Source of the DNA: Escherichia phage T4_ev151
Sequence record: LR597660
DNA: 64,000 nt
Direction: 5' to 3' (one strand)
Shown: positions 2,653 through 46,151 of the stretch, in pieces
How positions within the stretch are numbered: the first letter of the stretch is position 1
Layout: every line of letters starts with the position of its first letter
Position numbers and translations under genes: made by a program
The notes under the pieces: model-generated
What the model was told of the DNA's origin: nothing
The model's database searches: none
The model's input: only the letters and a program-made list of their open reading frames with translations

Positions 2653-2729
2653 TGGTCGAGGCAGAAGGATTCTAACCTTCAACCTACGGATTAGAAATCC
2701 GTTGCTCTATACAATTGAGCTATGCCCCG
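2653..2729 (-). tRNA. tRNA-Arg (anticodon TCT), CCA encoded
   Basis: Manual cloverleaf: acceptor CGGGGCA/TGCCTCG, D-stem GCTC/GAGC, anticodon stem ACGGA/TCCGT with loop TTTCTAA, T-arm GAAGG-TTAGAAT-CCTTC. Confidence 0.85.
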
Positions 2730-2732
2730 TAA

Positions 2733-3398
2733 TTAAAATTTCATTTTTCGACCTTTAAACCATCCTTCTGGAATTGGGTCAGTTTTCTTAATACGTTTAG
2801 AAACTTTTTCATCTAATGAATGAATCCACATCATACCAAATTGGGAATTCTTTTCGCCCTGTTGATGTTTATTTCTGGCGTGAGATTCTTTCATTTTATT
2901 AATAGTTTCAGGAGTATGGGTCTTACCCAAGAAAGATTTAGTATTTAAAAATTTCTCTCTATACTTAGGATTATCCCAAAGCCGTTTAAACCTTTCTGAA
3001 CCCATTTTACGATATTTTTCTTTAAGGTCTGGGTCGTTCTCAAATCTGGTTTTAAAAGCGGCAGCTCCTTTTAAGGAAGCTTCTTTCTTTTTATCCAAAT
3101 ATTCTTTAGTGTTTAAATGGTCCCAACCACCTTCACCACCTAATTTCAAATTATAAACATCAGGGCGCTTTAAAAACTCTTCAGTCACAATATTCTTTTC
3201 TGACTCAAACATAGAGGTTTTATCGTCAAAGAACTCTAATATTTCTTTAGAAAAATTTTCTATACCATACTTATCTTGGGCTCTTTTTAATAATTTACCA
3301 GAACCCATATATCCATCATCTAAATTTTCGGTAGAATGAGCGCCTATATAGATTTTATTATTAATTTTATTTGTTATTTTATAAATGTAATGGAACAT
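2733..3398 (-). CDS. segB: GIY-YIG homing endonuclease SegB-like, within the tRNA cluster
   Basis: 221-aa ORF; N-terminal IYKITN...KIYIGAHST...[14 protein letters not shown] module; position between tRNA subclusters as T4 segB; SD AGGAGA upstream. Confidence 0.85.
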   Translation of the reverse strand: MFHYIYKITNKINNKIYIGAHSTENLDDGYMGSGKLLKRAQDKYGIENFSKEILEFFDDKTSMFESEKNIVTEEFLKRPDVYNLKLGGEGGWDHLNTKEYLDKKKEASLKGAAAFKTRFENDPDLKEKYRKMGSERFKRLWDNPKYREKFLNTKSFLGKTHTPETINKMKESHARNKHQQGEKNSQFGMMWIHSLDEKVSKRIKKTDPIPEGWFKGRKMKF

Positions 3399-3439
3399 AA
3401 ATATCTCCTATTTCTAAGAGTATTTATGTTCTCAAAATA

Positions 3440-3511
3440 TGGCCCTGGGTGGAATTGAACCACCATCTGGCGATTATGAGTCGCTTGCTTGAACCTTCCA
3501 GCTACAGGGCC
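3440..3511 (-). tRNA. tRNA with anticodon CAT (T4 tRNA-Ile-like, lysidine-type, or Met)
   Basis: Manual fold: acceptor GGCCCTG/CAGGGCC, anticodon loop CTCATAA, T-arm GGTGG-TTCAATT-CCACC; CCA not encoded. Confidence 0.75.
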
Positions 3512-3517
3512 TTGATA

Positions 3518-3590
3518 TGCTGATTGACGGAATCGAACCGCCGACATCCTCATTACAAGTGAGGTGCTCTACCTACTGAGCTAAATCAGC
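3518..3590 (-). tRNA. tRNA-Thr (anticodon TGT)
   Basis: Manual fold: acceptor GCTGATT/AATCAGC, D-stem GCTC/GAGC, anticodon stem CCTCA/TGAGG with loop CTTGTAA. Confidence 0.85.
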
Positions 3591-3597
3591 GAAATTA

Positions 3598-3684
3598 CGG
3601 AGGCGATAGGATTTGAACCTATGAGTCGCCGGAGCGACTGCCGGTTTTCAAGACCGGTGCATTAAACCACTCTGCCACGCCTCC
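3598..3684 (-). tRNA. tRNA-Ser (anticodon TGA), long variable arm
   Basis: Manual fold: acceptor GGAGGCG/CGCCTCC, anticodon stem CCGGT/ACCGG with loop CTTGAAA, long variable arm, T-arm ATAGG-TTCAAAT-CCTAT. Confidence 0.85.
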
Positions 3685-3686
3685 AG

Positions 3687-3760
3687 TCTCCGTGGCAGGA
3701 TTTGAACCTACGACATTCTGCTCCCAAAGCAGACGCTCTACCAAACTGAGCTACACGGAG
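3687..3760 (-). tRNA. tRNA-Pro (anticodon TGG)
   Basis: Manual fold: acceptor CTCCGTG/CACGGAG, D-stem GCTC/GAGC, anticodon stem TCTGC/GCAGA with loop TTTGGGA; CCA not encoded. Confidence 0.85.
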
Positions 3761-3772
3761 TAAATTAAATTT

Positions 3773-3844
<72 letters not shown>

Positions 3845-3850
3845 AAACTT

Positions 3851-3937
3851 TGGTACGAGAAGTGGGACTCGAACCCACAAGGAAATCATTCCGCAGCATT
3901 TTAAGTGCTGTGCCTTTACCAATTTGACCATTCTCGC
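3851..3937 (-). tRNA. tRNA-Leu (anticodon TAA), long variable arm, CCA encoded
   Basis: Manual fold: acceptor GCGAGAA/TTCTCGT, anticodon stem CAGCA/TGCTG with loop CTTAAAA, T-arm GTGGG-TTCGAGT-CCCAC. Confidence 0.85.
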
Positions 3938-9314: not shown

Positions 9315-9905
9315 ATGCTCTTTACATTTTTTGATCCGATTGAATATGCGGCCAAAACGGTGAATAAAAACGCGCCGACTATTCCTATGACAGATATTTT
9401 TAGAAACTATAAAGACTATTTTAAACGCGCTCTTGCGGGATACCGCTTACGTACTTATTATATCAAAGGTTCACCACGTCCGGAAGAATTAGCAAATACT
9501 ATATATGGAAATCCACAGCTGTATTGGGTTTTATTGATGTGTAATGATAATTATGATCCATATTATGGATGGATTACTTCACAAGAAGCTGCTTATCAAG
9601 CATCTATACAAAAATACAAAAATGTGGGTGGAGACCAAATAGTATATCATGTGAATGAGAACGGTGAAAAATTTTATAATTTAATATCATACGATGATAA
9701 TCCATATGTTTGGTATGATAAAGGCGATAAAGCTAGAAAATATCCTCAATATGAAGGAGCACTTGCTGCGGTCGATACGTATGAAGCTGCTGTTCTTGAA
9801 AATGAAAAACTTCGTCAAATAAAAATAATAGCAAAATCAGACATCAATTCATTTATGAACGACCTTATACGTATAATGGAGAAATCTTATGGAAATGATA
9901 AGTAA
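9315..9905 (+). CDS. 53: gp53 baseplate wedge protein
   Basis: 196-aa ORF, length and synteny as T4 gp53; SD GGAGGG. Confidence 0.85.
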   Translation: MLFTFFDPIEYAAKTVNKNAPTIPMTDIFRNYKDYFKRALAGYRLRTYYIKGSPRPEELANTIYGNPQLYWVLLMCNDNYDPYYGWITSQEAAYQASIQKYKNVGGDQIVYHVNENGEKFYNLISYDDNPYVWYDKGDKARKYPQYEGALAAVDTYEAAVLENEKLRQIKIIAKSDINSFMNDLIRIMEKSYGNDK

Positions 9906-11619
9906 TAACCTTAATTGGTTTGTTGGTGTTGTTGAAGATAGAATGGACCCATTAAAATTAGGTCGTGTTCGCGTTCGTGTGGTTGGTCTGCATCCACCAC
10001 AAAGAGCACAAGGTGATGTAATGGGTATTCCAACTGAAAAATTACCATGGATGTCAGTTATTCAACCTATAACTTCTGCAGCAATGTCAGGAATTGGAGG
10101 TTCTGTTACAGGGCCAGTAGAAGGAACTAGAGTTTATGGTCATTTTTTAGACAAATGGAAAACTAACGGAATTGTCCTTGGCACGTATGGTGGAATAGTT
10201 CGCGAAAAACCTAATAGACTTGAAGGATTTTCTGACCCAACTGGGCAATATCCTAGACGTTTAGGAAATGATACTAACGTATTAAACCAAGGCGGAGAAG
10301 TAGGATATGATTCCTCTTCTAACGTTATTCAAGATAGTAACTTAGACACTGCAATAAATCCCGATGATAGACCACTATCAGAGATTCCAACCGATGATAA
10401 TCCAAATATGTCAATGGCTGAAATGCTTCGCCGTGATGAAGGATTAAGACTAAAAGTTTATTGGGATACCGAAGGATATCCGACAATTGGTATTGGTCAT
10501 CTTATCATGAAACAGCCAGTTCGTGATATGGCTCAAATTAATAAAGTTTTATCAAAACAAGTTGGTCGTGAAATTACTGGAAACCCAGGTTCTATTACAA
10601 TGGAAGAGGCGACGACTTTATTTGAGCGTGATTTGGCTGATATGCAACGGGACATTAAATCACATTCTAAAGTAGGACCAGTCTGGCAAGCTGTCAACCG
10701 TTCTCGTCAAATGGCGTTAGAAAATATGGCATTTCAAATGGGTGTTGGTGGTGTAGCTAAATTTAACACAATGTTAACTGCTATGTTAGCCGGAGATTGG
10801 GAAAAAGCATATAAAGCCGGTCGTGATTCATTGTGGTATCAACAAACAAAAGGCCGTGCATCCCGTGTTACCATGATTATTCTTACCGGAAATTTGGAAT
10901 CATATGGTATTGAAGTTAAAACACCAGCTAGGTCTTTGTCGGCAATGGCTGCTACTGTGGCGAAGTCTTCTGATCCAGCTGACCCTCCTATTCCAAATGA
11001 CTCGAGAATTTTATTCAAAGAACCAGTTTCTTCATATAAAGGTGAGTATCCTTATGTGCATACGATGGAAACTGAAAGTGGGCATATCCAAGAATTTGAT
11101 GATACTCCTGGGCAAGAACGATATAGATTAGTTCATCCAACTGGAACTTATGAAGAAGTATCACCATCAGGAAGAAGAACAAGAAAAACTGTTGATAATT
11201 TGTATGATATAACCAACGCTGATGGTAATTTTTTGGTAGCCGGTGATAAAAAGACTAACGTCGGTGGATCAGAAATTTATTACAACATGGATAATCGTCT
11301 TCACCAGATAGATGGAAGTAATACAATATTTGTACGTGGCGATGAAACTAAGACAGTTGAAGGTAATGGAACTATCTTAGTTAAAGGTAATGTTACTATT
11401 ATAGTTGAAGGTAATGCTGACATTACAGTTAAAGGAGATGCTACCACTTTAGTTGAAGGAAATCAAACCAATACAGTAAATGGAAATCTTTCTTGGAAAG
11501 TTGCCGGGACAGTTGATTGGGACGTTGGTGGTGATTGGACAGAAAAAATGGCATCTATGAGTTCTATTTCATCTGGTCAATACACAATTGATGGTAGCCG
11601 TATAGACGTAGGTTTATAA
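9889..11619 (+). CDS. 5: gp5 baseplate hub subunit with tail lysozyme domain and C-terminal beta-helix
   Basis: 576 aa; N-terminus MEMISNNLNWFVGVVED as T4 gp5; central lysozyme region; C-terminal VxGxxxxx repeats (TVEGNGTILVKGNVTIIVEGNADITVKGDATTLVEGN). Confidence 0.95.
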   Translation: MEMISNNLNWFVGVVEDRMDPLKLGRVRVRVVGLHPPQRAQGDVMGIPTEKLPWMSVIQPITSAAMSGIGGSVTGPVEGTRVYGHFLDKWKTNGIVLGTYGGIVREKPNRLEGFSDPTGQYPRRLGNDTNVLNQGGEVGYDSSSNVIQDSNLDTAINPDDRPLSEIPTDDNPNMSMAEMLRRDEGLRLKVYWDTEGYPTIGIGHLIMKQPVRDMAQINKVLSKQVGREITGNPGSITMEEATTLFERDLADMQRDIKSHSKVGPVWQAVNRSRQMALENMAFQMGVGGVAKFNTMLTAMLAGDWEKAYKAGRDSLWYQQTKGRASRVTMIILTGNLESYGIEVKTPARSLSAMAATVAKSSDPADPPIPNDSRILFKEPVSSYKGEYPYVHTMETESGHIQEFDDTPGQERYRLVHPTGTYEEVSPSGRRTRKTVDNLYDITNADGNFLVAGDKKTNVGGSEIYYNMDNRLHQIDGSNTIFVRGDETKTVEGNGTILVKGNVTIIVEGNADITVKGDATTLVEGNQTNTVNGNLSWKVAGTVDWDVGGDWTEKMASMSSISSGQYTIDGSRIDVGL

Positions 11620-37713: not shown

Positions 37714-38523
37714 ATGCTTAAAGAACAACTGATTGCCGAAGCGCAGAAAATTGATGCTTCCGTTGCTCTTGATAGTATTTTCGAATCAGTTAATATTTCT
37801 CCGGAAGCAAAAGAAACTTTCGGCACTGTATTCGAAGCTACCGTCAAGCAGCACGCCGTTAAATTAGCTGAATCTCATATCGCTAAAATTGCTGAAAAAG
37901 CAGAAGAAGAAGTAGAAAAAAATAAAGAAGAAGCAGAAGAAAAAGCTGAGAAGAAAATCGCTGAGCAAGCTTCTAAATTCCTTGACCATCTTGCAAAAGA
38001 ATGGCTCACTGAAAATAAATTAGCAGTAGATAAAGGTATCAAAGCCGAACTGTTTGAATCCATGCTTGGTGGATTGAAAGAGCTCTTCGTTGAACACAAC
38101 GTTGTTGTTCCAGAAGAATCAGTTGATGTTGTAGCTGAAATGGAAGAAGAACTGCAAGAACATAAAGAAGAATCAGCTCGTCTGTTCGAAGAACTCAATA
38201 AGCGTGACGCATATATCAATTATGTGCAGCGTGAAGTGGCATTGAGCGAAAGTACTAAAGATCTGACTGAGTCTCAAAAAGAAAAAGTCTCTGCTCTGGT
38301 CGAAGGTATGGATTATTCAGATGCATTCTCAAGTAAATTGAGTGCAATCGTAGAAATGGTGAAGAAATCTAATAAAGATGAAAGCACTATTACTGAGAGT
38401 ATAAATACTCCTGATACTGAAGCAGCCGGACTGAATTTCGTCACTGAAGCTGTAGAAGATAAATCTGCACAAGGTGCAGAAGATATTGTAAGTGTATATG
38501 CGAAAGTCGCATCTCGTTTCTAA
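37714..38523 (+). CDS. 22: gp22 prohead core scaffold protein
   Basis: 269 aa, acidic coiled coil; synteny. Confidence 0.85.
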   Translation: MLKEQLIAEAQKIDASVALDSIFESVNISPEAKETFGTVFEATVKQHAVKLAESHIAKIAEKAEEEVEKNKEEAEEKAEKKIAEQASKFLDHLAKEWLTENKLAVDKGIKAELFESMLGGLKELFVEHNVVVPEESVDVVAEMEEELQEHKEESARLFEELNKRDAYINYVQREVALSESTKDLTESQKEKVSALVEGMDYSDAFSSKLSAIVEMVKKSNKDESTITESINTPDTEAAGLNFVTEAVEDKSAQGAEDIVSVYAKVASRF

Positions 38524-38541: not shown

Positions 38542-40107
38542 ATGACTATCAAAACTAAAGCTGAACTTTTGAACAAATGGAAGCCATTACTGGAAGGTGA
38601 AGGTTTACCGGAAATTGCTAATAGCAAACAAGCGATTATCGCTAAAATCTTTGAAAACCAGGAAAAAGATTTCCAGACAGCTCCGGAATATAAAGACGAA
38701 AAAATTGCTCAGGCATTCGGTTCTTTCTTAACAGAAGCTGAAATCGGTGGTGACCACGGTTACAATGCTACCAACATCGCTGCAGGTCAGACTTCTGGAG
38801 CAGTAACTCAGATTGGCCCAGCTGTTATGGGTATGGTACGTCGTGCTATTCCTAACCTGATTGCTTTCGATATTTGTGGTGTTCAGCCAATGAACAGCCC
38901 GACTGGCCAGGTATTCGCACTGCGCGCAGTATATGGTAAAGACCCAATCGCTTCCGGTGCTAAAGAAGCATTCCACCCAATGTATGGTCCAGATGCAATG
39001 TTCTCTGGTCAGGGTGCTGCTAAGAAATTCGCTGCTTTGAAAGCAAGTGATACTCTTGAAGTCGGAACTATTTACACTCACTTCTTCCAGGAAACTGGTA
39101 CAGTATATCTGCAAGCTACAGAAGTTAAACAAATTGATTCAGGCGCATCTGACGCAGACAAATTAGATGCTGAAATTAAGAAACAAATGGAAGCTGGTGT
39201 ACTGGTAGAAATCGCTGAAGGTATGGCTACTTCTATCGCTGAACTTCAGGAAGGTTTTAACGGTTCTACCGATAACCCATGGAATGAAATGGGCTTCCGT
39301 ATCGATAAGCAAGTTATCGAAGCTAAATCTCGTCAGCTGAAAGCTGCTTACTCTATTGAATTAGCACAAGACCTTCGCGCTGTTCACGGTATGGATGCTG
39401 ATGCTGAACTGTCTGGTATTCTGGCTACCGAAATTATGCTGGAAATCAACCGCGAAGTTGTTGATTGGATTAACTACTCCGCTCAGGTTGGTAAATCTGG
39501 TATGACCCTGACTCCGGGTTCTAAAGCTGGTGTATTTGACTTCCAGGATCCAATTGATATTCGTGGTGCTCGCTGGGCGGGTGAATCCTTTAAAGCTCTG
39601 TTGTTCCAGATTGACAAAGAAGCAGTTGAAATTGCTCGTCAGACTGGTCGTGGTGAAGGTAACTTCATTATCGCTTCCCGTAACGTAGTTAACGTTCTGG
39701 CTTCAGTTGATACCGGCATTTCTTATGCTGCACAGGGTCTGGCTACCGGCTTTAACACTGATACTACCAAGTCAGTATTTGCTGGTGTTCTGGGTGGTAA
39801 ATACCGTGTATATATCGACCAGTATGCTAAACAGGATTATTTCACTGTAGGTTATAAAGGTCCGAACGAAATGGATGCTGGTATTTACTATGCTCCATAT
39901 GTAGCTCTGACTCCGCTGCGTGGTTCCGATCCGAAGAACTTCCAACCGGTAATGGGATTCAAAACTCGTTACGGTATCGGTATCAACCCATTTGCAGAAT
40001 CCGCTGCTCAGGCTCCGGCTTCTCGCATCCAGAGCGGTATGCCTTCTATTCTGAATAGCCTTGGTAAGAACGCTTACTTTAGACGTGTATATGTTAAAGG
40101 TATCTAA
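38542..40107 (+). CDS. 23: gp23 major capsid protein
   Basis: 521 aa; N-terminus MTIKTKAELLNKWKPLLEGEGLPEIANSKQAIIAKIFENQEKDF as T4 gp23 from memory. Confidence 0.97.
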   Translation: MTIKTKAELLNKWKPLLEGEGLPEIANSKQAIIAKIFENQEKDFQTAPEYKDEKIAQAFGSFLTEAEIGGDHGYNATNIAAGQTSGAVTQIGPAVMGMVRRAIPNLIAFDICGVQPMNSPTGQVFALRAVYGKDPIASGAKEAFHPMYGPDAMFSGQGAAKKFAALKASDTLEVGTIYTHFFQETGTVYLQATEVKQIDSGASDADKLDAEIKKQMEAGVLVEIAEGMATSIAELQEGFNGSTDNPWNEMGFRIDKQVIEAKSRQLKAAYSIELAQDLRAVHGMDADAELSGILATEIMLEINREVVDWINYSAQVGKSGMTLTPGSKAGVFDFQDPIDIRGARWAGESFKALLFQIDKEAVEIARQTGRGEGNFIIASRNVVNVLASVDTGISYAAQGLATGFNTDTTKSVFAGVLGGKYRVYIDQYAKQDYFTVGYKGPNEMDAGIYYAPYVALTPLRGSDPKNFQPVMGFKTRYGIGINPFAESAAQAPASRIQSGMPSILNSLGKNAYFRRVYVKGI

Positions 40108-43087: not shown

Positions 43088-44794
43088 TTATGGATAGGTA
43101 TAGATGATACCAGTTTCTAAAGCAGTTTTATGAATGATGTATCCATTACGCGATTCTTGGACATCAACTTCTGGATAATCTTTCATCATCTTCTGGAGAG
43201 TGTAACGATGCAAGTAGTACTTACTATCTGGATCGTCAGTTTTCCAATCTTTACCTTCTTCGGTCATTTTTTGGATTTCATCCATAACCCACCAACCGCA
43301 CCAGATATAAGCCGAAGTACGATGTGGAAGAGGATGAACATAAGGCAATTCACCTTCTGGTTCTGGAGCAACTTTATCAGTTACCTGAACTTGACCTTCT
43401 GCTGTGATAGTTTTGCTATCATAATCAGTAGCAGTAACAGTTGCAGTAACTTCAATAGTTTGACTTCCAATAGATGATGTATCAACAGTGTATACATTAG
43501 TTGACCCTTCTACTGGAGAAGAATCTTTCTTCCATGAATATTCGATTTGTGCTTCTTCTGGAGCATCCGTAACATTAGCAGTAAATGTAGCCGAAGCATC
43601 TTGCTGAACGTTAATAGAAGGAGGAGTCAATGTAACCCGTGGATTCATTGTTTTCTTATTAACAGTCAATGATACTTCATTAGAAGTAACTTCCTTTTCA
43701 TTGTAATTTTCTGCAGTTACTTGCGCTACACACTTAACTGTTTTAGCTCCAACTGTGGTAGGAGTATAGTTAAATGTAGTAGTAGTTTCTCCATCGACCA
43801 GAGAACCGTCAACATACCACTGATACGTAGCAGACGCTCCTGGTGGCTGTGAAGCCAAGGCAGCAGTAAATTGAACTGGGGTTCCAATTACTGCTGCAGC
43901 AGGATTAGCAGGAGTTACGGCTAACGTAGTTGTCTGTGTTTTCTTATTAACTGTTAATGATACTTCATTAGAAGTAACTGTTTTTGCGTCATAATCTGTT
44001 GCTGTTACTTGGGCTACGCATTTAATTCTTTTAACCCCACTTGTAGTTGGAGTGTAATTGAACGTAGCATTAGTTTCTCCACCAACTTGTGAATCATCTA
44101 CATACCACTGATACGTAGCAGATGCTCCTAGCGGCTGCGAAGCTAAGGCAGCAGTAAATTGAACTGGGGTTCCAATTACTCCTGCTGGAGGACTATCAGG
44201 AGTTACTGCCAAAGTAGTTGTCTGCTCCTTTTTATTAACAGTCAGTGATACTTCATTAGAAGTAACGCTTAGTGCATCATAATCTGTCGCAGTTACTTGA
44301 GCTACACACTTGATTTTTTTAACTCCGCTTGTGTCAGGAGTGTAATTGAATGTAGCGTCAGTTGCTTCGTCTACAGGAGAACCGTCAACGTACCACTGAT
44401 ATGTGGCGTTTGCGCCAGATGGCTGCGAAGCTAAGGCAGCGGTAAATTCAATTGGAGTTCCAATCACTCCAGCATCAGGGCTACCAGGAGTTACAGCTAA
44501 AGTAGTTGTTTGTGTCTTATTTTGAACTGTGATAGTTGTACTAATTTCAGCTGTTTCAGCTTCACTGTCAGGAACTGGATTTGTTGCAACTACTTTAATA
44601 GTTTTCTGGCCTGCAGGCCCCTTTAATACATAACTAAAAGTTGCTGACGTTTCTTCCTGTGGAGCACCGTCTACAGTCCAAGCATATGTAATAGGTCCAT
44701 CTCCAGTTTGACCACTGGGTGTAGCAGTAAACTGCTGAGTCTGATCTATAACTCCAGTAGGTGTTTTAGGAGTTATATCAACTGTAAAAGTCAT
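43088..44794 (-). CDS. hoc: Hoc (highly immunogenic outer capsid protein), expanded form with tandem Ig-like domains
   Basis: 568 aa; N-terminus MTFTVDITPKTPTGVIDQTQQFTATPSGQTG and C-terminal capsid-binding region as in T4 Hoc (376 aa from memory); three consecutive ~96-aa near-identical modules in the middle. Confidence 0.9.
   Translation of the reverse strand: MTFTVDITPKTPTGVIDQTQQFTATPSGQTGDGPITYAWTVDGAPQEETSATFSYVLKGPAGQKTIKVVATNPVPDSEAETAEISTTITVQNKTQTTTLAVTPGSPDAGVIGTPIEFTAALASQPSGANATYQWYVDGSPVDEATDATFNYTPDTSGVKKIKCVAQVTATDYDALSVTSNEVSLTVNKKEQTTTLAVTPDSPPAGVIGTPVQFTAALASQPLGASATYQWYVDDSQVGGETNATFNYTPTTSGVKRIKCVAQVTATDYDAKTVTSNEVSLTVNKKTQTTTLAVTPANPAAAVIGTPVQFTAALASQPPGASATYQWYVDGSLVDGETTTTFNYTPTTVGAKTVKCVAQVTAENYNEKEVTSNEVSLTVNKKTMNPRVTLTPPSINVQQDASATFTANVTDAPEEAQIEYSWKKDSSPVEGSTNVYTVDTSSIGSQTIEVTATVTATDYDSKTITAEGQVQVTDKVAPEPEGELPYVHPLPHRTSAYIWCGWWVMDEIQKMTEEGKDWKTDDPDSKYYLHRYTLQKMMKDYPEVDVQESRNGYIIHKTALETGIIYTYP
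43652..44515 (-). repeat. three tandem ~288-bp near-identical repeats encoding Ig-like modules within hoc
   Basis: Protein repeats QTTTLAVTP...VTSNEVSLTVNKK occur three times; the DNA shows matching blocks such as GCTAAGGCAGCAGTAAATTGAACTGGGGTTCCAATTACT. Confidence 0.85.
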
Positions 44795-44803
44795 AAGTTA
44801 TCC

Positions 44804-45484
44804 TTATTTTAATGTTACGAAAGAAGAATTGCGTGTTTCACGAATTAAAACTGATCCGTCACGGTTAATGTAATAAATTAAGCTAAATAAAGTTTGGTGT
44901 GCTGACGCGTGTTCAAAACTAGTTGGGTGAGATTTCCAATCCGGAGTTTCAGCTATCCATTGATAAATCCACCAAGGAACGGTGCAGAATCCTGGATTTT
45001 TTCCAATCAACTGAAGATTCGGGCTAAAGTTTTCCGGAAGAGTAAATACAGACGGCTTTTCAGATTCAATAATCTCAGCTACAGCCTGTTCAAATTTTTC
45101 TTCAACAAAAGGAGTATCTTCAATCAAAACATCGGCATTTTCGGGAATTTTATCCGTTTCTACTACTTCAATTTTAATGTCAGATTTAACCGGAGAATCA
45201 ATCAGAAGTGCTGCTTCTGGATTGACTTCTTCATCGTCATATTTTAATCCCTCTGCAGCATCAGCAGCATCAATTAAGTCTTTAATAGATAACCCATCAG
45301 TCTCTGGCATAGGTTCACTAGCGAGCTTCTGGAGGGCTTCTTCAATATCAACAACGATATTATCAAAAGATTTATTCTTTTTGACCTTTATACCAAACTG
45401 TTCAGCATATTCAGCTAATTTAGCTTTAGCTTCTTTGTTATCATCAAGAGCCTTCAGCTCTGCAATATAATCTTTATCTATCAT
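44804..45484 (-). CDS. inh: Inh, inhibitor of prohead protease
   Basis: 226-aa ORF, synteny immediately downstream of hoc as in T4. Confidence 0.75.
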   Translation of the reverse strand: MIDKDYIAELKALDDNKEAKAKLAEYAEQFGIKVKKNKSFDNIVVDIEEALQKLASEPMPETDGLSIKDLIDAADAAEGLKYDDEEVNPEAALLIDSPVKSDIKIEVVETDKIPENADVLIEDTPFVEEKFEQAVAEIIESEKPSVFTLPENFSPNLQLIGKNPGFCTVPWWIYQWIAETPDWKSHPTSFEHASAHQTLFSLIYYINRDGSVLIRETRNSSFVTLK

Positions 45485-45533: not shown

Positions 45534-46151
45534 ATGTACCACTTTGTATATGAAACAACAAATCTAATAAACGGTAAAAAGTATATAGGAAAACACTCTA
45601 CTGATGACTTGAATGATGGTTACCTTGGTTCCGGTAAGGCAATTCAGCAGGCTATAAAGAAATATGGTGAAAACAATTTCTCTAGAACAATATTAAAAGA
45701 GTTTAAAACTTCTGAAGAAGCGTACATGTATGAAGAAGAAATTATAACTCCTGAAATAATAAAAAGCAAAAATTATTATAATATGAAACCTGGTGGAATT
45801 GGTGGAATTGTTATGACTACAGAGGTTATAGCAAAGATGAAAGAATCTTCCGCTAAGAGATTTGAAAACTCACCGGGCACGGTATTAGGTACAACTTGTT
45901 ACACCAATGGAACTAAAAATATTTTTATTAAACCTGGAGAACTTGTTCCAGAAGGATTTGTAAAAGGAATGGTTCATCCTAATAGAAAGTCCAGAAAAGG
46001 ATGTAAAGTCAAACCGACTACCACAGGAACTTTTTGGGTCAATAACGGTGCAATAAATAAATTAATACAACCAGACGGTATTATTCCCGACGGATTTATT
46101 AAAGGTCGTCTCATGAAAAGAGATTCTAAAGGCAAATTTAGTAAGGCATAA
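45534..46151 (+). CDS. GIY-YIG homing endonuclease (Seg family; segD/segE-like position between inh and uvsW)
   Basis: MYHFVYETTNLINGKKYIGKHST...DGYLGSGKAI...KYGENNF; paralogue of the ORFs at 2733 and 13015. Confidence 0.85.
   Translation: MYHFVYETTNLINGKKYIGKHSTDDLNDGYLGSGKAIQQAIKKYGENNFSRTILKEFKTSEEAYMYEEEIITPEIIKSKNYYNMKPGGIGGIVMTTEVIAKMKESSAKRFENSPGTVLGTTCYTNGTKNIFIKPGELVPEGFVKGMVHPNRKSRKGCKVKPTTTGTFWVNNGAINKLIQPDGIIPDGFIKGRLMKRDSKGKFSKA

What the first reader, a model, noticed from the sequence alone, without database searches (positions are those of the whole stretch)
43652..44515. Hoc expanded by three tandem near-identical Ig-like modules
Hoc is 568 aa here versus 376 aa in T4 as I recall. 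The extra length is three consecutive ~96-aa modules that are near-identical at protein and DNA level, implying recent tandem duplication. Hoc decorates the capsid surface and mediates adherence, so extra Ig domains would lengthen the surface fibre.
Basis: partly seen in the sequence, partly recalled or inferred. Interest (0 to 1): 0.6.

Follow-up and report, generated by a model that had tools for sequence, protein, structure and literature searches.

The report
Five-Ig Hoc allele, old domain triplication
This T4-like phage has a longer version of the capsid-decoration protein Hoc, in which one immunoglobulin-like domain occurs three times in a row instead of once; the copies are old and clearly diverged, the same form occurs in other sequenced phages, and it is an ordinary natural allele of a protein already known to vary in domain number.

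Summary
The repeat is real. The hoc gene (43088..44794, minus strand, 568 aa) contains three in-frame 288-nt (96-aa) units at 43649..44512.

- **Extra length.** T4 Hoc (376 aa) already has one such unit, its domain 2. The extra length is therefore two units (192 aa), not three.
- **Similarity.** The units are not near-identical. They share 76–82% DNA and 74–82% protein identity.
- **Age.** The duplication is not recent. Synonymous divergence between units is 0.56–1.05. Each unit has a 89–99% identical counterpart at the same position in other three-unit phages.

An assembly artefact is very unlikely. The copies share no in-register exact run longer than 36 nt, and the same architecture appears in at least 12 phage assemblies from different sources.

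Across Tequatrovirus, hoc occurs with one, two or three units (about 67%, 26% and 7% of 120 protein clusters). None has four. One- and two-unit alleles carry chimeric units, which points to in-register unequal recombination.

The exact protein is already in GenBank (VUF55740.1, phage T4_ev151). The capsid-binding C-terminus is 94/96 identical to T4. The likely result is a longer five-Ig capsid fibre.

Variation in Hoc Ig-domain number is already published. Interest is low to moderate.

The parts
43088..44794 (-). hoc coding sequence, 568 aa plus stop. Its product is identical to VUF55740.1 of Escherichia phage T4_ev151.
   Evidence: ORF list. PHROG 1149 'Hoc-like head decoration', E 1e-174. 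T4 Hoc chain 5vf3_Z, E 3e-206. Exact-sequence look-up.
44513..44794 (-). Ig-like domain 1 (aa 1-94), the counterpart of T4 Hoc domain 1.
   Evidence: 73/94 identical to T4. Beta-strand domain in the model with block pLDDT 81-93. 38-40% identical to the repeat units.
44225..44512 (-). Repeat unit A (aa 95-190), the first copy of the domain-2 module.
   Evidence: 92.7-96.2% DNA identity to unit 1 of other three-unit and two-unit alleles.
43937..44224 (-). Repeat unit B (aa 191-286), the second copy. This is the type closest to T4's single domain 2.
   Evidence: 94.8% to Kelasse unit 2, 89.2% to unit 2 of the other three-unit alleles, 88.5% to the T4 unit.
43649..43936 (-). Repeat unit C (aa 287-382), the third copy.
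   Evidence: 97.2-99.0% to unit 3 of other three-unit alleles and 94.4% to the single unit of phage Geo.
43379..43648 (-). Last Ig-like domain (aa 383-472), the counterpart of T4 Hoc domain 3.
   Evidence: 77/90 identical to T4 residues 191-280. Pfam Ig_3 and I-set hits at aa 385-469. 30-41% identical to the repeat units.
43088..43378 (-). C-terminal capsid-binding domain (aa 473-568) plus stop codon.
   Evidence: 94/96 identical to T4 Hoc residues 281-376, the domain shown by cryo-EM to bind the gp23* hexamer (PMC10385173). PHROG 21694 hit, E 1e-41.
44804..45484 (-). inh (inhibitor of prohead protease gp21), the upstream neighbour. It fixes the locus as the T4 hoc locus.
   Evidence: Same position and 681-nt length as the annotated inh of T4, ime09 and Kelasse.

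Best explanation
This is a genuine natural allele of the Tequatrovirus head decoration protein Hoc. The domain-2 Ig-like module is present three times in tandem (units A, B, C). The architecture is Ig1, Ig2A, Ig2B, Ig2C, Ig3, then the capsid-binding domain.

Shown:
- The triplication is old. The copies have diverged to 74-82% protein identity under purifying selection.
- In the alleles compared at DNA level, each unit has a positional counterpart in other phages.
- Tequatrovirus hoc exists with one, two or three units, and many units are chimeras of A, B and C segments.

Inferred:
- The 288-nt units act as substrates for in-register unequal homologous recombination and gene conversion, within and between co-infecting phages. 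This changes copy number and reshuffles unit segments.
- The protein still binds the centre of each gp23* hexamer through its nearly T4-identical C-terminal domain.
- It projects a fibre of five rather than three Ig-like domains. If T4's 180 Å over four domains scales at about 45 Å per domain, the fibre would be roughly 27 nm instead of 18 nm.
- This places more weakly adhesive, acidic Ig-like surface further from the capsid, for contact with mucin glycans or bacterial surfaces.
For: Identity as Hoc:
- PHROG Hoc family, E 1e-174.
- T4 Hoc PDB chain 5vf3_Z, E 3e-206, matched in two stretches (query 1-189 and 369-568) that bracket the extra units.
- C-terminal 96 aa are 94/96 identical to T4.
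- Same neighbours as in T4: inh, segE and uvsW upstream; 24.3, 24.2 and rnlB downstream.

Ig-like modules:
- Pfam PKD, Ig_2 and Ig_3 hits above their cut-offs.
- The AlphaFold2 model has mean pLDDT 85. The 10-residue blocks spanning the three units average 86-96, nearly all above 90. Each unit shows seven main beta strands.
- Foldseek PDB hits are mainly chains of tandem beta-sandwich domains such as complement C3, CEA, ICAM-1, cadherin and Dscam.

Age of the triplication:
- dS 0.56-1.05 and dN/dS 0.12-0.24 between units.
- Same-position units across three-unit phages average 97.2% identity. Different-position units reach at most 82.6%.

Real rather than artefact:
- Thirteen records in the phage collection (12 phages, one listed twice) carry a 1707- or 1713-nt hoc.
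- Eight further 568-570 aa protein clusters come from NCBI, ENA and Logan assemblies.

Copy-number polymorphism and chimeras:
- hoc spans of 1131, 1419 and 1707 nt occur in 37, 14 and 2 of 53 full-length sampled records.
- Of 120 protein clusters, 80 have one unit, 31 have two and 9 have three.
- The Kelasse allele equals the window allele minus 288 nt at 97.4% identity, with the junction at unit nt 213-221. The ime09 allele equals it minus 288 nt at 96.7%. The Geo allele equals it minus 576 nt at 96.2%.
- Head, middle and tail segment types occur in nearly all combinations. Among single-unit alleles, AAA, AA(BC), BBA and BB(BC) are all present.

Literature:
- T4 Hoc is a 180 Å fibre of three Ig-like domains plus a capsid-binding domain. 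Homologues carry strings of up to 10 Ig-like domains (PMC10385173).
- Hoc Ig domains bind MUC2 and fucose (PMC11853027).
Against: - Nothing here shows that the protein is expressed, assembled on the capsid, or extended as a straight fibre.
- The model's pTM is only 0.48, so inter-domain geometry is not reliable.
- The direction of copy-number change cannot be told from chimeric junctions, because unequal crossing-over yields both products. Three-to-one deletion and one-to-three expansion remain equally open.
- T4's own single unit is a C-head, B-middle, A-tail mixture. It could equally be close to an ancestral single unit.
- No whole-unit signal of positive selection was found. dN/dS is below 0.25 between units and 0.1-0.6 between positional counterparts, the highest values resting on very few changes in unit C. 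An adaptive benefit of extra units is therefore unproven.
- hoc is dispensable in the laboratory and is frameshifted in some relatives (P0050).
Confidence: 0.85

Rival explanations
1. Recent tandem duplication. The two extra units arose lately in this phage lineage and are still almost identical.
For: The units are exactly in register, each 288 nt, with no indels between them.
Against: - DNA identity is only 76-82%, and dS is 0.56-1.05.
- Each unit is 89-99% identical to the same-position unit in other phages, but at most 82.6% identical to units at other positions.
- Three-unit alleles occur in phages whose whole hoc genes differ from the window's by about 5-10%.
Confidence: 0.02
2. Assembly artefact. 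The true gene has fewer units, and the assembler mis-expanded a repeat.
For: Tandem repeats can be mis-assembled from short reads. The read data for this phage were not available.
Against: - The copies differ at roughly one base in five. The longest in-register exact runs are 21, 21 and 36 nt, so ordinary reads place them uniquely.
- The reading frame is intact through all three units.
- The same 1707-nt architecture is found in 12 other phages and in metagenome-derived clusters.
Confidence: 0.02
3. Adaptive cassette system. The domain-2 array is maintained because recombination among its units generates combinatorial variation in copy number and loop composition. Selection for binding specificity (mucin or other glycans, bacterial surfaces) or for escape from anti-Hoc antibodies would act on this variation. 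This goes beyond neutral by-products of T4's very active recombination.
For: - Nearly all head/middle/tail combinations exist in the population.
- Differences between units are enriched in predicted loops: 17 of 43 loop columns against 10 of 53 strand columns, Fisher p = 0.039.
- The N-terminal part of the array is a local divergence peak. It is 83-93% identical to ESh36 at 44045..44644, against mostly 95-99% in the flanks.
- Hoc is highly immunogenic, and single substitutions in it change mucin binding (PMC9271167 as cited; PMC11853027).
Against: - dN/dS is well below 1 for whole units.
- The loop enrichment is marginal.
- No functional data exist for unit number.
- Mosaicism is expected anyway for any repeated sequence in a highly recombinogenic phage.
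Confidence: 0.3

Closest known systems
Phage T4 Hoc (UniProt P18056; PDB 5VF3, 8T1X)
   Same: - Same locus and same N-terminal domain 1 (73/94 identical).
- Same last Ig-like domain (77/90 identical).
- Same capsid-binding C-terminal domain (94/96 identical).
- Acidic, with pI 4.48 against 4.74 for T4.
   Different: The window protein has three copies of the domain-2 module where T4 has one. It is 568 aa against 376 aa, and 60.8 kDa against 40.4 kDa.
Three-unit Hoc of other Tequatrovirus phages (for example YUEEL01 YP_010074903.1, ESh36, UGKSEcP1 and UGKSEcP2, KMB26)
   Same: - Identical architecture, at 568-570 aa.
- 92-95% DNA identity over the whole gene.
- Units A, B and C in the same order.
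   Different: Unit B of the window is only 89.2% identical to their unit B. It matches the head of the Kelasse two-unit allele instead (94.8%). The window allele is therefore a different mosaic.
Two-unit Tequatrovirus Hoc (472 aa; for example ime09, Kelasse, AR1)
   Same: Same gene, flanks and unit types. Kelasse and ime09 equal the window allele minus one 288-nt unit, at 97.4% and 96.7% identity.
   Different: They have one unit fewer, and the surviving junction unit is a chimera (B head with C tail in Kelasse).
Hoc homologues with other numbers of Ig-like domains: Serratia phage Muldoon (10 Ig), Klebsiella phage PMBT63 (4 Ig), E. coli phage PNJ-9 (2 Ig), RB49 Hoc (PDB 3SHS)
   Same: A string of Ig-like domains on a conserved capsid-binding domain. 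Domain number varies between phages (PMC10385173, PMC13435897, PMC11853027).
   Different: Those are distant homologues whose domains are strongly diverged. Here the extra domains are 74-82% identical paralogues that vary in copy number within a single genus.
BACON-domain tandem repeats of crAss-like phages (PMC6949934)
   Same: Tandem repeats of a putative carbohydrate-binding domain in a phage protein, described as evolving by domain duplication. This rests on the title and abstract only.
   Different: A different fold, protein and phage group. I did not read the paper in full.

Membership tests
Hoc (highly immunogenic outer capsid protein) of T4-like phages | C-terminal capsid-binding domain homologous to T4 Hoc residues 281-376 | tested here: met
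   94/96 identical. The PDB sequence search places query 369-568 on T4 Hoc 177-376. PHROG 21694 hit, E 1e-41.
Hoc (highly immunogenic outer capsid protein) of T4-like phages | N-terminal string of Ig-like beta-sandwich domains | tested here: met
   Pfam PKD (54.9 bits against a cut-off of 23.5), Ig_2 and Ig_3. The AlphaFold2 model shows five consecutive all-beta domains, with blocks across the repeats mostly above pLDDT 90. Foldseek hits are mainly chains of tandem beta-sandwich domains.
Hoc (highly immunogenic outer capsid protein) of T4-like phages | Position in the Tequatrovirus genome between inh and genes 24.3, 24.2 and rnlB | tested here: met
   The ORF order in the window matches the annotated T4, ESh36, ime09 and Kelasse loci.
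Hoc (highly immunogenic outer capsid protein) of T4-like phages | One copy bound at the centre of each gp23* hexamer (155 per capsid), dispensable for growth | not testable with these tools
   Requires virion structure or biochemistry. Inferred only from the conserved C-terminal domain.
Recent tandem duplicate (near-identical copies) | Copies nearly identical at DNA level with little synonymous divergence | tested here: not met
   76-82% DNA identity and dS 0.56-1.05.
Recent tandem duplicate (near-identical copies) | Copies closer to each other than to counterparts in related genomes | tested here: not met
   Same-position units across phages average 97.2% identity. Different-position units reach at most 82.6%.
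Mucus-adherence (BAM) Ig-like capsid adhesin | Binding of the Ig-like domains to mucin glycans | not testable with these tools
   Shown for T4, PNJ-6 and PNJ-9 Hoc in the literature (PMC11853027). Not tested for this allele.

The most novel reading that the evidence does not exclude
The domain-2 array of Tequatrovirus Hoc may be a recombination-driven cassette system. In-register exchange among 288-nt units, within a genome and between co-infecting phages, would continually generate alleles with one to three units and new loop combinations. Selection on glycan or surface adhesion, or on escape from anti-Hoc antibodies in the gut, would keep this polymorphism in the population.
Probability: 0.3. 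Interest if true: 0.45.

Novelty: new member of a known kind. Interest (0 to 1): 0.25.

Why it matters
Hoc is the T4 protein used for phage display and vaccine scaffolds. It is also the protein behind the model of phage adherence to mucus. Natural alleles with one, two or three copies of the same Ig-like module, on an otherwise nearly identical capsid, are a ready-made series for testing whether fibre length and Ig valency change mucus adherence, particle aggregation or immunogenicity. The chimeric units also document how quickly T4-type recombination reshapes a repeated coding sequence. None of this changes current understanding of Hoc, because variation in its Ig-domain number is already published.

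Tried and rejected
- **Recent duplication:** rejected on dS and on positional counterparts in other phages.
- **Assembly artefact:** rejected as far as sequence alone allows, on copy divergence and recurrence in other assemblies. Reads were not available.
- **Alleles with four or more units:** none found. The longest of the top-scoring proteins in a 5.8-billion-cluster search is 570 aa. A four-unit allele would have scored at the top.
- **Origin of phage T4_ev151 (accession LR597660):** the record is not in the phage collection. No paper in the library describes it. It is only cited as the nearest relative of ESh36.
- **Published description of the one/two/three-unit polymorphism of domain 2:** seven literature searches in all, two of them on the phage's origin, found only general statements that Hoc domain number varies.
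- **Foldseek with the whole five-domain model:** it returned generic chains of tandem beta-sandwich domains with low TM-scores. RB49 Hoc (3SHS) was not in the top 50. This supports the fold class but not a specific relationship. I did not search single domains.
- **Whole-unit dN/dS:** gave no sign of positive selection. The loop enrichment of differences is marginal (p = 0.039).
- **Other RNA or repeat features in the array:** the Rfam scan and the whole-window tandem-repeat scan found nothing else there.

Full report
**What is there**

The window is a Tequatrovirus (T4-like) genome segment. A 20-kb stretch around the finding is 96.5-97.7% identical to many Tequatrovirus phages.

The ORF at 43088..44794 on the minus strand encodes 568 aa. 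Its neighbours are those of T4 hoc: inh, segE and uvsW on one side, and 24.3, 24.2 and rnlB on the other. It matches the PHROG 'Hoc-like head decoration' family at E 1e-174 and the T4 Hoc PDB chain 5vf3_Z at E 3e-206.

The exact protein sequence is already public as VUF55740.1, a 'hypothetical protein' of Escherichia phage T4_ev151. A paper gives that phage's accession as LR597660. The record is not in the phage collection I could search.

**Checking the observation**

Tandem Repeats Finder reports one array at 43649..44515: period 288, 3.0 copies, 80% matches, score 1064. The gapless repeat finder gives three 288-nt copies at 43649-43936, 43937-44224 and 44225-44512. It is the only large tandem repeat in the 64-kb window.

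In the protein these are aa 95-190 (unit A), 191-286 (unit B) and 287-382 (unit C). Alignment z-scores of 44-54 against shuffled sequences rule out chance. The coordinates, period and copy number are therefore confirmed.

Two descriptive claims are not:

| Pair | DNA identity | Protein identity |
|---|---|---|
| A-B | 77.4% | 82.3% |
| A-C | 76.4% | 74.0% |
| B-C | 82.3% | 80.2% |

- These values are clearly similar but not 'near-identical'.
- The extra length over T4 is 192 aa, which is two units, not three. T4 Hoc already has one such module, its domain 2. The PDB sequence search aligns T4 Hoc to the query in two blocks (query 1-189 and 369-568) that bracket the additional units.

**Age of the triplication**

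Synonymous divergence between units is 0.56-1.05, with dN/dS of 0.12-0.24. This indicates long independent evolution under purifying selection.

I extracted units from ten other hoc loci. The units cluster by type rather than by phage. In three-unit alleles, same-position units average 97.2% DNA identity (minimum 89.2%). Different-position units never exceed 82.6%.

The triplication therefore predates the divergence of the phages that carry it. T4's single domain 2 groups with unit B (88.5%). The single unit of phage Geo groups with unit C (94.4%).

Domains 1 and 3 are also paralogues of the unit, at 27-41% identity and z-scores of 8-13. Hoc as a whole is thus a product of successive domain duplications of different ages.

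**Artefact?**

The longest in-register exact runs shared by two units are 21, 21 and 36 nt, so ordinary sequencing reads distinguish them. The reading frame is intact.

The same 1707-nt (or 1713-nt) hoc occurs in 13 records of the phage collection, representing 12 phages from different sources. ESh36 is from the USA, YUEEL01 from South Korea and KMB26 from Slovakia. It also occurs in eight further protein clusters from NCBI, ENA and Logan assemblies. I could not examine reads, but an artefact is very unlikely.

**Population picture**

Tequatrovirus hoc comes in three sizes:

| Units | Gene length | Sampled records | Protein clusters |
|---|---|---|---|
| 1 | 1131 nt | 37 of 53 | 80 of 120 |
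| 2 | 1419 nt | 14 of 53 | 31 of 120 |
| 3 | 1707 nt | 2 of 53 | 9 of 120 |

- No protein longer than 570 aa appeared among the top-scoring hits, so four-unit alleles seem absent.
- Shorter alleles are related to the window allele by clean in-register deletions:
  - Kelasse equals the window gene minus 288 nt at 97.4% identity. The junction lies at unit nt 213-221, giving a B-head, C-tail chimera.
  - ime09 equals it minus 288 nt at 96.7%, with the junction in the conserved unit tail.
  - Geo equals it minus 576 nt at 96.2%.
- I classified the head, middle and tail of each unit using the 26 columns that distinguish the A, B and C consensus sequences of the three-unit alleles. Almost every combination exists. 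Among single-unit alleles, AAA, AA(BC), BBA and BB(BC) are all present, which is a four-gamete pattern. In some three-unit alleles the B-type and C-type tails have swapped positions.
- Compared with ESh36, identity drops to 83-93% across 44045..44644 (end of domain 1, unit A and most of unit B). The flanking genes are mostly 95-99%.

These patterns are what in-register unequal homologous recombination and gene conversion would produce. The direction of any single change, gain or loss, cannot be inferred.

**Structure and likely function**

Pfam finds PKD, Ig_2 and Ig_3 domains above their cut-offs. An AlphaFold2 model built on a 32-sequence alignment has mean pLDDT 85. It shows five consecutive all-beta domains, and the 10-residue blocks spanning the three units average 86-96, nearly all above 90. 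Each unit has the same pattern of seven main strands. The C-terminal domain is modelled poorly, as expected without the capsid. The pTM of 0.48 means the relative arrangement of domains is not reliable.

Foldseek against the PDB returns mainly chains of tandem beta-sandwich domains such as complement C3, CEA, ICAM-1, cadherin and Dscam.

The 27 columns that differ among the window's own units are modestly enriched in predicted loops: 17 of 43 loop columns against 10 of 53 strand columns, p = 0.039. The protein is acidic, with pI 4.48 against 4.74 for T4.

The C-terminal 96 residues are 94/96 identical to T4 residues 281-376. Cryo-EM has shown that this domain binds the gp23* hexamer (PMC10385173).

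From this I infer, but have not shown, the following:
- The protein decorates the capsid as in T4.
- It projects a fibre about one and a half times as long. T4's is 180 Å for four domains (PMC10385173). Two more domains at about 45 Å each would give roughly 27 nm.
- The extra Ig-like domains add valency for weak binding to mucin glycans or bacterial surfaces. Such binding is documented for the Hoc proteins of T4, PNJ-6 and PNJ-9 (PMC11853027).

**Comparison with what is known**

Variation in the number of Ig-like domains in Hoc is published:
- Ten domains in Serratia phage Muldoon (PMC10385173).
- Two in phage PNJ-9 (PMC11853027).

Three-unit orthologues are already annotated as 'Hoc-like head decoration' in RefSeq (YUEEL01).

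Seven literature searches, two of them on the phage's origin, did not find a description of the within-genus polymorphism of the domain-2 module and its chimeric units. That is a modest addition, not a new kind of system.

**Verdict**

The repeat is real, and the gene is hoc with five Ig-like domains. The 'longer surface fibre' idea is reasonable but untested.

I classify this as a new member of a known kind, with low to moderate interest. The most novel reading still open is that the array works as a recombination-driven cassette system under selection for adhesion or antigenic variation. I put that at about 0.3.

Noticed in passing
window 45534..46151 (+): A 205-aa ORF lies at the position of the T4 segE GIY-YIG homing endonuclease, between inh and uvsW. 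It is present in T4 and ESh36 but absent from ime09 and Kelasse, where uvsW directly follows inh. A mobile endonuclease gene is therefore polymorphic right next to the hoc locus.
   Followed up: partly
window 44045..44644: This is a local divergence peak against the nearest three-unit allele, ESh36. Identity is 83-93% here and mostly 95-99% in the flanking genes. The region covers the end of domain 1, unit A and most of unit B, which suggests allelic exchange confined to part of hoc.
   Followed up: partly
protein P0090 (567 aa, 24 member sequences, Logan assemblies): This is a second kind of five-Ig Hoc. Domain 1, the first unit and the C-terminus are Tequatrovirus-like (79%, 84% and 98% identical to the window). 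The next three Ig-like domains are only 39-52% identical to the window's, and its three middle units are 39-52% identical to each other. It looks like a chimera with a more distant Hoc lineage.
   Followed up: partly
protein P0050 (phage BYEP02, 439 aa); phage FriedrichMiescher hoc annotated as 'part 1' and 'part 2': Some relatives carry interrupted or frameshifted hoc genes. P0050 loses the capsid-binding domain after residue ~400. This fits with hoc being dispensable.
   Followed up: no
window 2656..3937 (-): A cluster of seven tRNA genes was found by Rfam at gathering threshold. This is presumably the T4-type tRNA cluster.
   Followed up: no
window 11355..11487 (+), inside the 576-aa ORF 9889..11619: Short 24- and 48-nt tandem repeats at 74-75% matches. 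From memory these probably encode the octapeptide beta-helix repeats of the gp5 cell-puncturing protein. I did not check this.
   Followed up: no
window 37894..37955 (+), inside ORF 37714..38523: A GAA-rich 24-nt imperfect repeat (2.9 copies) that encodes a Glu/Lys-rich stretch. The ORF sits just upstream of the 521-aa ORF at 38542..40107 in the head-gene block. I did not examine it.
   Followed up: no
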